Virus record (IMG/VR): IMGVR_UViG_3300025885_000003
DNA length: 20,000 nt
Strand: one strand, 5' to 3'
From: an uncultured virus (IMG/VR IMGVR_UViG_3300025885_000003)
Taxonomy: Duplodnaviria > Heunggongvirae > Uroviricota > Caudoviricetes
Both the position numbers and the translations under genes were made by a program. The notes beneath the pieces were generated by a model, which had not been told where the DNA came from, did no database searches, and saw nothing but the letters and a program-made list of their open reading frames with translations. Below, piece after piece: positions 6,217 through 8,705 of this stretch. Within the stretch, counting starts at the first letter, position 1. Each line of letters opens with the position of its first letter.

Positions 6217-6626
6217 AGGTAGGATTCGATCTGGACGGAGTACTGGACAGACCCGTACTGGCTACGCTCCTTCGTACGTTACTCTCGGCCGGTGTCGAAG
6301 TCCACATCATCACGGGTACTTTTGACGAATCAGACTCTTGGCAGGGGCCACAGGCTAAGCGGGAGAAGCTTGCTCGTCTGAACATCCCGTATCGGGAATC
6401 TATCTCTCCGGTTCCTGGTCCTGGTCATCCTGCGACAGCAGTGTTCCACTGTCTGTACGCTGCGGATGAGCATTACGGGCTGGAATACCGGTTGCGTGAT
6501 CTTGGGATGCGGAAGGGCGCGCTGTGTGAGAAGTTGGGCATCACGCTGTTCCTAGACGATTCGGAGATTTACGCCAAGATGATCCCACTGATGTCTGGCG
6601 GCACAACCGTTCTTCATGTGAGGTAA
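6213..6626 (+). CDS. Minimal HAD-superfamily hydrolase (possible nucleotidase/phosphatase)
   Basis: Motif I FDLDGVLD, motif II IITG, motif III K (RKG), motif IV LFLDDS. GTGA overlap with the lysozyme stop. Confidence 0.8.
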   Translation: MKVGFDLDGVLDRPVLATLLRTLLSAGVEVHIITGTFDESDSWQGPQAKREKLARLNIPYRESISPVPGPGHPATAVFHCLYAADEHYGLEYRLRDLGMRKGALCEKLGITLFLDDSEIYAKMIPLMSGGTTVLHVR

Positions 6627-6628
6627 CG

Positions 6629-6754
6629 ATGGCCAGAACGATTGCACAGAAGTACGCGACAGGAAACTGTACTCAAAGAATGCTCACCGGAAAATACGGC
6701 GTTGCTCAACCAACGATCAGTAAACTTGTGCTGCGGCAGCGGAGGAACACATGA
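6629..6754 (+). CDS. 41-aa stand-alone helix-turn-helix peptide (not in ORF track)
   Basis: Hand translation: MARTIAQKYATGNCTQRMLTGKYGVAQPTISKLVLRQRRNT. TQ..L..KYGV.Q.TIS..V is an HTH pattern. GAGGT RBS upstream; stop overlaps the next start (ATGA 6751-6754). Confidence 0.7.
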   Translation: MARTIAQKYATGNCTQRMLTGKYGVAQPTISKLVLRQRRNT

Positions 6755-7332
6755 GAATTATCGTCCTAGACGTAGAAACGGGTGGCTTCGATTCCACTAC
6801 TGACTCGATCCTTTCCCTCGGCGCGGTAGTACTGGACGACGACGGTACCATCGTTGACTCGTTCCACACGCTGATCCAGGAAGAGGAAATCAACGCCAAC
6901 GAGGGTGCGCTGAAGGTCAATGGTTTGACCATCGAACGACTCCGTGAGCAGGGCTTGTCGCCTCGGATGACGGTGACGTTGTTTACTGAGTTCATACGGC
7001 GCAATAGCCTTCCCTCGCGGCCGACTCTTGCTGGACACAACATCGCGGGATTCGATATGGGCTTCATCCGGCGTCTGTATCGTCTGGCTGGCGCGCGGAT
7101 GTCGTTCGATTATCATGTGCTCGATACCATGTCGGCTGCTCTGCTGTTGAAGTGGGCGGGCCGGTTGCCGGTAGCGAACGTGAAGCTGGACACACTGATC
7201 AAGCACTTCGATATCGTGGGTCGTGAGGGTGAGGAGCATAACGCACTCGAAGACGCGACGCTTACAGCGAAACTCCTGGTCGCACTCCGTGATATGTTCA
7301 CAGTTGGCGCACTTGAGAACAAAACTACCTAG
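6751..7332 (+). CDS. DEDDh 3'-5' exonuclease (DnaQ/epsilon-like)
   Basis: LDVETGG, AGHNIAGFDMGFI and EHNALEDA motifs. GGAGGA RBS. Confidence 0.92.
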   Translation: MRIIVLDVETGGFDSTTDSILSLGAVVLDDDGTIVDSFHTLIQEEEINANEGALKVNGLTIERLREQGLSPRMTVTLFTEFIRRNSLPSRPTLAGHNIAGFDMGFIRRLYRLAGARMSFDYHVLDTMSAALLLKWAGRLPVANVKLDTLIKHFDIVGREGEEHNALEDATLTAKLLVALRDMFTVGALENKTT

Positions 7333-7342
7333 GAGGTAACTC

Positions 7343-7438
7343 ATGGGTTGTGCAGTTGCAATTGTCGTAGGACTCGTCTGCGCGTTCCTCTTCATCGAGT
7401 TCGTCATGCCACTGTTCTTCCCTGTCCAGTGGCCTTGA
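7343..7438 (+). CDS. 31-aa single-pass membrane peptide (not in ORF track)
   Basis: Hand translation: MGCAVAIVVGLVCAFLFIEFVMPLFFPVQWP. Perfect AGGAGGT RBS at 7331-7337. Confidence 0.7.
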   Translation: MGCAVAIVVGLVCAFLFIEFVMPLFFPVQWP

Positions 7439-7440
7439 GT

Positions 7441-7571
7441 TTGGGTTGACTACGCCCGTGAATCGGGCCTTGCCGCGAGGCTCTACGGGCTGGTACCGGT
7501 TCGCGAGACCGACTGTCGCATAGCATTACGGTGCTAGGGCAGTTCGGAGGAAGAGTAGAGTGTCAACCCAA
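7441..7571 (+). ncRNA. Candidate structured ncRNA (or structured 3' UTR) of unknown family
   Basis: A perfect 10-bp closing stem (TTGGGTTGAC 7441-7450 / GTCAACCCAA 7562-7571) encloses three hairpins, two with GCGA (GNRA) and UACG (UNCG-type) loops. The G-U pairs work only on the + strand. Confidence 0.55.
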
Positions 7572-7574
7572 CAA

Positions 7575-7625
7575 ACACGAAGCCCCGACTGCCTATCACT
7601 AGGCGGCCGGGGCATTTGTGTTGTT
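7575..7625. terminator. Intrinsic terminator hairpin between convergent operons, possibly bidirectional
   Basis: GCCCCGaCTGCCTA-tcac-TAGGCGGcCGGGGC (7582-7613), followed by ATTTGTGTTGTT and preceded by AACAAACACGAA, which reads U-rich on the - strand. Confidence 0.8.
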
Positions 7626-7685
7626 ACGGATGAACTCGCCCAGGTGACTGGACGGGCTCAGGACTCCTCCCACGACGTGGGTGAG

Positions 7686-8090
7686 CTATTTCGATGCAAC
7701 TCCCTGGAGCTTCTCGACCGTGCGCATACCACCGAGGCCGAGCATTCCAACGAGTAGTGTAGTCAGGAGACTCACGTCCAGCATGACCATCTTGACTGGG
7801 TGCGCAGTCATCTCAGAACCCCACACGACGAGGGGACCTAGAACCATCTGGATAGCCAGAGCCGAACCGCAGACCCAACCGATAAACGGCCTCCATCCAG
7901 ACACAAAGATGTTCGGATTCGCTGCCTCGATCTCGTTGATCTTGTTCTGCCCGGCGATGACCGCGAGGTCACCACTCTGCTCAAGTTCAGCGAGTTTCTG
8001 AATCGCTTCAGCCTTAGCCTTGGGATCGGGGATGACCTTGTCGAGAATCTTCGTACCGAAGCCGAGGAGGTCAAGAAGAGGAAATGGCAT
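7686..8090 (-). CDS. Holin of the 3TM / GTA-holin type
   Basis: KILDKVIPDP..KAEA, FVSGWRPFIGWVCG and LLVGMLGLGGMRTVEK match the family pattern. GAGGT RBS. Confidence 0.85.
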   Translation of the reverse strand: MPFPLLDLLGFGTKILDKVIPDPKAKAEAIQKLAELEQSGDLAVIAGQNKINEIEAANPNIFVSGWRPFIGWVCGSALAIQMVLGPLVVWGSEMTAHPVKMVMLDVSLLTTLLVGMLGLGGMRTVEKLQGVASK

Positions 8091-8092
8091 CG

Positions 8093-8302
8093 TTACCTCT
8101 TATCTTTCGGTAGCGGTCCAAGCGGCTTACGTCCTGCACCGACGTTGACACTGACATAGTGTTCGAGAAAGAGGCCAACTGCGAGTACAGCAACTGCACC
8201 GTAACCGCCGTTAAATGGAAGACCCGCGAGGATCAGCCACGCCACTAGGGCGACGATTTCAATAGCAGTAAACAGAATGACGCCTTTGAGTGCTTTGCTC
8301 AT
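8093..8302 (-). CDS. Small two-TM membrane protein (lysis-module associated)
   Basis: Two hydrophobic segments and a basic C-terminal tail. GGAGGT RBS; coupled to its neighbours. Confidence 0.7.
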   Translation of the reverse strand: MSKALKGVILFTAIEIVALVAWLILAGLPFNGGYGAVAVLAVGLFLEHYVSVNVGAGRKPLGPLPKDKR

Positions 8303-8451
8303 TACTTACCTCCCTTGATTTTCTTCCCTGCGTAACCGCTATTCTTCGTCAACTTCATCGGGGGAGCCTCGTGCTTGGGCATAGTCGCTTCTCCGAGTAT
8401 CACATTCTTCGTGCGGTCCACCATATTCTGAATCGGGCTCTTACGTGCCAT
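8302..8451 (-). CDS. 49-aa basic hypothetical protein (not in ORF track)
   Basis: Hand translation: MARKSPIQNMVDRTKNVILGEATMPKHEAPPMKLTKNSGYAGKKIKGGK. TAATG stop/start overlaps at both ends; GGAGG upstream. Confidence 0.7.
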   Translation of the reverse strand: MARKSPIQNMVDRTKNVILGEATMPKHEAPPMKLTKNSGYAGKKIKGGK

Positions 8452-8705
8452 TAGCGTTCCCTCCGTTCAAGAAGTCGGTCCAACTTGTGATTCATTTCTT
8501 TCTGTCCGTCTTTAATCTCAGTAATGTCATCACGTACAGTCTCAACTTTAGTCTCGACTACTGCAAGACGGGCATCCTGTTTCCACGATGAGACGCTTGA
8601 CCATGTAGCCCAGGCGACGGTACTGGAGAGGATAAGACCGATGATAACCTGGATCAGCCACATCGGAACTTGCTCCATGCTGCGGCTTAGTGCATTGTGA
8701 GTCAT
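8451..8705 (-). CDS. Single-TM + coiled-coil protein (XhlA-like / holin-accessory type)
   Basis: Hydrophobic WLIQVIIGLILSSTVAWATW followed by heptad-like RLAVVETKVETVRDDITEIKDGQKEMNHKLDRLL. ATGA overlap with the upstream gene. Confidence 0.7.
   Translation of the reverse strand: MTHNALSRSMEQVPMWLIQVIIGLILSSTVAWATWSSVSSWKQDARLAVVETKVETVRDDITEIKDGQKEMNHKLDRLLERRER

What the first reader, a model, noticed from the sequence alone, without database searches (positions are those of the whole stretch)
7441..7625. Unassigned multi-stem structured RNA ending directly at the terminator between the convergent operons
Seen: P1 is 7441-7450/7562-7571 (10 perfect bp, extendable by TAC/GTA 7451-7453/7555-7557). 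P2 is GCCCGTG/TACGGGC (7454-7460/7484-7490), an AATC bulge, then GGGCCTTG/CGAGGCTC. P3 is CGG(T)TC-GCGA-GACCG (7497-7511, GNRA loop). P4 is ACTGTC/GGCAGT plus TAGCAT-TACG-GTGCTA (7512-7543, UNCG-type loop). A purine-rich joiner CGGAGGAAGA follows. Most of the ~130 nt are paired, several G-U pairs point to + strand RNA, and the genome is otherwise almost gap-free. Mutually exclusive alternative pairings exist (GCCCG-tgaat-CGGGC 7454-7468; CCGA 7509-7512 with TCGG 7544-7547), which could allow switching. Inference: a discrete phage-encoded four-way-junction ncRNA (decoy, packaging, processing or regulatory RNA). I cannot assign it to tRNA, tmRNA, SRP, RNase P or a known small ribozyme.
Basis: partly seen in the sequence, partly recalled or inferred. 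Interest (0 to 1): 0.8.

Follow-up and report, generated by a model that had tools for sequence, protein, structure and literature searches.

The report
Orphan RNA in phage tRNA slot
An uncultured soil phage carries a 131-base stretch that can fold into a clamped RNA at the spot where its relatives keep tRNAs and other small RNA genes, so it is probably a small stable RNA gene like the unexplained ones of phage T4, but I found no relative of it and its inner fold is uncertain.

Summary
The 10-bp closing stem 7441-7450/7562-7571 was reached by 0 of 300 shuffles. The element folds better than shuffles on the + strand (z -3.4; minus strand -2.4). The four-way junction is not supported: its P2 and P3 have pair probabilities of 0.08 and 0.02, and a three-way fold dominates. 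No Rfam, tRNA, YrlA, SRP or ribozyme signature was found. No homologue was found beyond a 94-99% identical sister phage, so covariation is untestable. The new evidence is position. In 19 of 23 hand-picked syntenic relatives, the stretch between the same exonuclease gene and the same terminator holds tRNAs (13) or recurring uncatalogued RNA families (6). The element matches none of 35 other candidate RNAs from that slot. Best reading: a stable small RNA cut from the operon's 3' end, akin to T4 RNAC/RNAD, probably a decoy against host defence (inferred). The scan noted a similar arrangement on other DNA (e1-6116202).

The parts
6751..7332 (+). DEDDh 3'-5' exonuclease gene; upstream anchor of the RNA cassette slot in the phage family
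   Evidence: Pfam RNase_T E 3e-18; syntenic in relatives
7343..7438 (+). 31-codon hydrophobic ORF with a GGAGG ribosome-binding site; its UGA lies two bases before the RNA
   Evidence: sequence; no Pfam hit; unchanged in the sister; tblastn found it only in the sister
7441..7571 (+). Candidate 131-nt stable RNA
   Evidence: z -3.4 on + against -2.4 on -; no Rfam or tRNA hit; occupies the tRNA/ncRNA slot
7441..7450 (+). P1 5' arm (closing clamp)
   Evidence: 10 perfect pairs with 7562-7571; 0 of 300 shuffles
7454..7505 (+).
   Evidence: probabilities 0.88 / 0.08 / 0.04; energies within 1.4 kcal
7509..7547 (+). P4 hairpin with a UACG loop, extended by CCGA/UCGG
   Evidence: pair probabilities mostly 0.86-1.0
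7548..7561 (+). Purine-rich single-stranded joiner (part of the GGAGG/GGA run at 7546-7551)
   Evidence: largely unpaired in the minimum-energy fold; motif scan
7562..7571 (+). P1 3' arm; A7570 is G in the sister (U-A becomes U-G)
7572..7626 (.). Bidirectional intrinsic-terminator-like hairpin of a type shared by the phage family; C7604 is T in the sister (G-C becomes G-U on +)
   Evidence: z -6.4 on both strands; same hairpin type in 18 relatives. The simple terminator scan did not list it, as its + strand U-tail is imperfect
7686..8090 (-). 3-TM holin gene; last gene of the convergent late operon
   Evidence: Pfam GTA_holin_3TM E 9e-21

Best explanation
The element is the single RNA gene in this phage's variable tRNA/small-RNA cassette. 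It is co-transcribed at the 3' end of the + strand replication/metabolism operon and ends at the family terminator (position shown; transcription inferred). Host nucleases trim it free of the upstream message, and the 10-bp P1 clamp plus the terminator leave a stable RNA of about 130-185 nt (inferred). It works in trans, like the unexplained stable RNAs of the T4 tRNA region. Its most likely job is to act as a decoy or sponge for a host RNA-binding defence or translation-control protein, with P4 and the exposed purine-rich GGAGGAAGAG joiner as the contact surface (inferred; no direct evidence). I put about 0.6 on 'a selected, discrete RNA' and about 0.35 on the full decoy mechanism.
For: P1 beyond chance (0 of 300); + strand z -3.4; largest intergenic gap in a tightly packed window. 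The two sister substitutions in element and terminator both give G-U pairs on the + strand and are also seen in run X9; by chance this has about 1 in 4 odds. Slot: of 23 relative loci, 13 hold tRNAs and 6 hold members of recurring non-tRNA RNA families between the same exonuclease gene and terminator; 4 hold none that I could see. Other clamped multibranch RNAs abut the terminator in the same way in L231 (z -2.9) and L306 (z -3.3). The window's 136 nt before the terminator fold best of 19 loci (z -4.1). T4 RNAC and RNAD are small RNAs of the tRNA region with unknown roles (PMC3014915; PMC9697503). A T5 tRNA from that phage's tRNA region neutralises a host defence (PMC11464382).
Against: No homologue beyond the sister, so no covariation: 0 compensatory changes in 42 pairs over 2 sequences. 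The interior alone is weak (z -1.7) and ambiguous. The element resembles none of 35 other slot candidates (best z 2.0). Its low divergence (1 of 133 sites, against 7 of 50 and 12 of 57 fourfold sites in the flanking genes) is not proof of selection: the peptide ORF (0 of 17) and the spacer (1 of 59) are as conserved, and run X8 is a mosaic of window and sister alleles next to it. No promoter-like site was found. The sister genome has no tRNA. The decoy step has no support from any call.
Confidence: 0.4

Rival explanations
1. A cis-acting 3'-end structure: it stays on the operon mRNA and stabilises or insulates it together with the terminator, with no separate RNA.
For: It begins two bases after a stop codon and abuts the terminator. 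No promoter-like site and no flanking tRNA to release it.
Against: The terminator alone is already very stable (-33.4). Four relatives (L216, L223, L300, L303) go from coding sequence straight to the terminator, so the operon does not need such a structure.
Confidence: 0.2
2. A decayed relic of the ancestral RNA cassette, or a captured scrap: the stems persist but have no present function.
For: The slot turns over fast between lineages. The interior is only z -1.7. It is an orphan.
Against: P1 is still 10 of 10 and P4 nearly perfect. It shows no likeness to any tRNA or slot family from which it could have decayed.
Confidence: 0.17
3. Chance pairing in a GC-rich spacer next to a real terminator.
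For: 7 of 1590 tiled windows in coding DNA fold better in raw energy. The boundaries were chosen after the fact.
Against: P1 reached by 0 of 300 shuffles; whole-element z -3.4; a 133-nt spacer is atypical of this window.
Confidence: 0.12
4. A coding explanation: a stimulator of UGA read-through that extends the 31-aa peptide by 32 codons, or a ribosome-binding site (GGAGG 7546-7550) for a 65-codon ORF at 7560-7757.
For: The frame stays open for 32 codons past the UGA. A gene caller predicted the 65-codon ORF in a near-identical phage (P0121).
Against: No homologue for the read-through form. The 65-codon ORF crosses the terminator, runs antisense into the holin gene, has only one near-identical match, and its stop is lost in the sister through changes inside the overlapping holin gene.
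Confidence: 0.06
5. A bistable switch, riboswitch or small self-cleaving ribozyme that controls termination or processing.
For: Three folds lie within 1.4 kcal. A UGGUACC string like the T-box bulge (motif recalled) is present at 7491.
Against: The terminator is never disrupted. No sense-strand gene lies downstream. No Rfam ribozyme or riboswitch at E up to 10. No hammerhead core and no HDV-like topology.
Confidence: 0.05

Closest known systems
T4 RNAC and RNAD (small RNAs of the T4 tRNA region; PMC3014915, PMC9697503, passages read)
   Same: Small non-tRNA RNA in a phage tRNA region, role unknown. Similar size (sizes recalled, from no call).
   Different: No sequence comparison was made. The T4 RNAs are shown by Northern blot; this one is only predicted. 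This phage has no tRNA beside it; the tRNA context comes from relatives.
Bacterial and phage YrlA Y RNAs (PMC4201824, parts 1-2 of 5 read)
   Same: Size near the 80-130 nt range given there; a long stem pairing the two ends; phage-encoded examples are known; three relatives carry T-arm-first tRNA-like RNAs in this slot.
   Different: No GNCGAA motif and no T loop. No TROVE/Ro60 hit among 69 ORFs scanned.
GOLLD and ROOL RNAs (search listing only; link to phage tRNA regions recalled)
   Same: Structured phage-associated RNAs of unknown function.
   Different: Several times longer (recalled); no Rfam match.
Uncatalogued slot families of the related phages
   Same: Same genomic slot, same strand, same terminator type.
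   Different: No sequence or model match. The family A model scores its members at 110-140 bits but nothing above 6 bits in window 6500-8500; pairwise z at most 2.0.

Membership tests
tRNA / tRNA-like | Cloverleaf with T loop, anticodon arm and a CCA-accepting end | tested here: not met
   ARAGORN 0 genes; no Rfam tRNA; no T-loop motif; the only CCA (7568-7570) is CCG in the sister
YrlA / bacterial Y RNA | GNCGAA motif near the 5' end (PMC4201824) | tested here: not met
   absent on + strand 7441-7580
YrlA / bacterial Y RNA | T, acceptor-like and D stem-loops in permuted order | tested here: not met
   no T loop or D-arm start; no Rfam hit
YrlA / bacterial Y RNA | Ro60/TROVE gene within about 4 kb | tested here: not met
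   none among 20 window ORFs and 49 further ORFs chosen from the sister genome's ORF list; the host is unknown
SRP RNA | Helix 8 with GNRA tetraloop and symmetric loop | tested here: not met
   recalled motif absent; no SRP model at E up to 10; the likeness CAGUUCGGAGGAAG is superficial
HDV-like / theta ribozyme | Nested double pseudoknot with L3 and catalytic J4/2 | tested here: not met
   a relaxed descriptor written from memory found 0 hits on either strand of 7400-7640; 12 of 164 background tiles hit; no positive control was run
Hammerhead, twister, pistol, hatchet ribozymes; riboswitches; tmRNA; RNase P; 6S | Match to the Rfam model | tested here: not met
   no such match at E up to 10 in the whole window or in 7300-7700 (only ftsZ-DE at E 5.2 over the terminator)
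T-box riboswitch | Antiterminator competing with a terminator upstream of a gene; Stem I | tested here: not met
   a UGGUACC string is present but the terminator stays formed, no sense gene follows, and Rfam gives no hit
Slot family A of related phages | Match to the covariance model built from 6 members | tested here: not met
Phage tRNA-region stable RNAs (T4 RNAC/RNAD kind) | Encoded in the phage tRNA region | tested here: inconclusive
   met by synteny (13 of 23 relatives have tRNAs in the slot) but this phage has no tRNA
Phage tRNA-region stable RNAs (T4 RNAC/RNAD kind) | Accumulates as a discrete stable RNA in infection | not testable with these tools
   no RNA run was available to lay
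Phage tRNA-region stable RNAs (T4 RNAC/RNAD kind) | Conserved structure across related phages | tested here: inconclusive
   only the near-identical sister was found; one G-U-type change, no compensatory change

The most novel reading that the evidence does not exclude
This family of uncultured ~64-kb soil podophages keeps a fast-swapping cassette of RNA-only counter-defence modules (tRNAs, permuted and oversized tRNA mimics, clamped multibranch RNAs), and this element is a new, bistable RNA class in it that neutralises a specific host defence or RNA-binding protein.
Probability: 0.15. Interest if true: 0.8.

Novelty: new member of a known kind. Interest (0 to 1): 0.42.

Why it matters
The roles of the non-tRNA RNAs in phage tRNA regions have stayed unknown even in T4 (PMC3014915, PMC9697503). 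Here one genomic slot in one phage family holds tRNAs in some members, several uncatalogued RNA families in others, this orphan in one, and nothing in a few. That is a natural swap series for asking what such RNAs do. The element itself is the weakest-supported member because it has no homologue; family A, with compensatory changes in 7 of 25 pairs, is the better target.

Tried and rejected
DNA search of 5, 401 and 301 bacterial genomes: only 24-32 nt matches; the host is unknown, so the phyla were guesses. The closest relatives by exonuclease (52-58% identity) lie in collections whose DNA I could not fetch. No cultured relative: the 862-aa protein has no match and the polymerase at most 24% among the 15 rows listed. 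No RNA holder was listed among 12 runs; this says nothing on expression. A circular-permutation likeness to family A and a reversed Y-RNA-like stem were seen by eye and dropped. Self-dimer through the palindrome run at 7492-7506: gain -14.4 kcal, matched by 13 of 100 shuffles. Selection from low divergence was rejected as confounded by recombination. Fremin et al. (PMC10690425): short motifs of the element and of family A had no match in 6 supplementary files, but 3 files could not be searched, two of them too large, and these may hold the alignments. PMC2330249 passages held nothing on T4 stable RNAs. Keyword searches showed no paper on this phage family; they cannot test a sequence.

Full report
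Setting. The window is part of an uncultured phage. The + strand carries a family A DNA polymerase, ThyX, a lysozyme and a DEDDh exonuclease; the - strand carries a holin and large unannotated genes. A sister record of 63,464 bases (G001; loci L001, L214) is 94-99% identical over three blocks and has SU10-type portal and adaptor genes. The best DNA runs are rhizosphere and soil metagenomes. No cultured relative was found. The host is unknown.

Observation. The element starts two bases after the stop of a 31-codon hydrophobic ORF (7343-7438) and ends at a strong hairpin terminator (z -6.4 on both strands). The element gives -58.7 kcal/mol, z -3.4 (1 of 300 shuffles); the minus strand gives z -2.4; the interior without P1 gives z -1.7 (19 of 300). 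A 10-bp perfect long-range inverted repeat was reached by 0 of 300 shuffles. P1 and P4 are firm. The four-way fold is 4.5-4.9 kcal above the minimum, and two other folds are within 1.4 kcal. Loading other energy sets changed nothing in that call, so it is no independent check. The terminator stays formed in all three contexts folded, so no switch output is visible.

Known families. Rfam gave no relevant match at E up to 10 and ARAGORN none. The YrlA features of Chen et al. (PMC4201824, parts 1-2 of 5 read) are absent: no GNCGAA, no T loop, no TROVE hit in 69 ORFs scanned. Hammerhead, SRP and HDV-like patterns, written from memory, were not found.

Homologues. None beyond the sister, by blastn, nhmmer, three pattern scans, a covariance model and bacterial genome samples. 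The sister differs at 7570 (P1) and 7604 (terminator); both changes give G-U pairs on the + strand and recur in run X9. There is no compensatory change. The element has 1 change in 133 sites while the adjacent gene parts differ at 7 of 50 and 12 of 57 fourfold sites. But the peptide ORF (0 of 17) and the spacer (1 of 59) are equally quiet, and run X8 joins window-type alleles at 7191-7242 to the sister allele at 7307. Recombination can explain the quiet block, so I do not count it as selection.

The slot. Protein-based scans gave related phage loci with the same order: polymerase, lysozyme, exonuclease, then the convergent holin. I picked 23 by hand, leaving out duplicates, loci cut before the terminator and non-syntenic ones; some that remain are close kin (L221/L296, L230/L231). 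A terminator of the same type was found by pattern in 18 of the 23, and 11 of these 18 have ARAGORN tRNAs between exonuclease and terminator. Five more (L218, L224, L229, L319, L375) hold members of recurring non-tRNA families; L216 and L223 hold none. Of the 5 missed by the pattern, L215 and L448 hold tRNAs, L235 holds a family member, and L300 and L303 hold none. In all, 19 of 23 use the slot for RNA genes. Rfam names only tRNAs in 20 such loci. The window's element resembles none of 35 candidate RNAs that I delimited by eye there (best z 2.0), while true families score z 5-53. It is not family A. It shares only an architecture with L231 and L306: a long closing stem directly before the terminator.

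Mechanism. Shown: position, strand preference, P1, P4, terminator, slot. Inferred: co-transcription with the operon, release by host nucleases, stability from the clamp, and action in trans. T4 makes two small RNAs of unknown role from its tRNA region (PMC3014915 and PMC9697503, passages), and a T5 tRNA defeats the PARIS defence (PMC11464382, passages). Fast, lineage-specific turnover of the slot fits an arms race. I therefore commit to a decoy RNA against a host RNA-binding defence or translation-control protein, at about 0.35-0.4; no call tests that step. Rivals: cis 3'-end structure 0.2, relic 0.17, chance 0.12, coding 0.06, switch or ribozyme 0.05.

Novelty. The sequence is in no catalogue I could search, with the caveat on three unread supplementary files of Fremin et al. 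(PMC10690425; passages and 6 supplement files). The kind, a small structured RNA in a phage tRNA region, is known. Earlier AI notes of this scan describe like arrangements in other phages (e1-6116202, e1-6036238); I did not check their sequences, and sequence look-ups found no look-alike. I saw only the abstract and outline of preprint 10.64898/2026.07.01.735769 and do not rely on it.

Verdict. A real clamped structure, probably an RNA gene, with an uncertain inner fold and no homologue. The cassette around it is the more interesting result. Interest 0.42.

Noticed in passing
L221:4438-4566, L296:3822-3949, L298:3821-3950, L229:5022-5131, L236:3333-3460, L319:3842-3948, L299:1526-1632: Family A: an uncatalogued 105-130 nt RNA with invariant junction residues and a 3' ACCA, often just before a tRNA; 7 of 25 predicted pairs show compensatory change; no Rfam hit at gathering scores. 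It contains GGCGAA, which fits the Ro60-binding motif of YrlA RNAs.
   Followed up: partly
L218:5122-5240, L224:4815-4930, L236:3538-3620: Family B: circularly permuted tRNA-like RNAs (T arm first, then acceptor-like stem, then D arm), the YrlA order, directly before the terminator; not detected by Rfam or ARAGORN.
   Followed up: partly
L229:5132-5243, L235:4669-4777, L228:5646-5756: Family D: about 110-nt RNAs with an acceptor-like stem and T arm at the 3' end but three other hairpins in place of D and anticodon arms; 4 of 33 pairs compensatory.
   Followed up: partly
L319:3950-4020, L375:5040-5108: Family F: a near-identical 70-nt non-coding stretch before the terminator in two lineages, weakly folded.
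   Followed up: no
L374:5311-5430 and 6571-6712; L227:4873-5122; L231:5368-5606; L306:3645-3806; L224:4613-4812; L295:2568-2790; L299:1632-1800; L310:1019-1212; L230:4826-4975: Further clamped or tRNA-like RNAs of unknown family in the same slot; the two in L374 are related to each other (z 7.2).
   Followed up: no
L227:5211-5285, L228:5760-5836, L229:4946-5020, L230:5059-5133: Degenerate tRNA-His-like genes with altered D and T loops, missed at default scores and found for L230 and L231 only at a lowered ARAGORN threshold.
   Followed up: no
window:7343-7438: 31-codon hydrophobic peptide before the RNA; relatives have other short hydrophobic ORFs near the terminator.
   Followed up: partly
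G001 whole record (L454-L457): Strong avoidance of several 6-bp palindromes, for example CTCGAG 0 seen against about 20 expected, AGATCT 0 against 12, GTCGAC 1 against 20, pointing to host restriction systems; two glycosyltransferase genes and an FAD oxidoreductase gene suggest DNA modification.
   Followed up: no
window:4020-4895 and 6627-6750: Homing-endonuclease turnover between window and sister: the window has an endonuclease VII domain fused ahead of a nucleoside deoxyribosyltransferase-like gene that the sister lacks, and the sister has an HNH gene inserted before the exonuclease.
   Followed up: no
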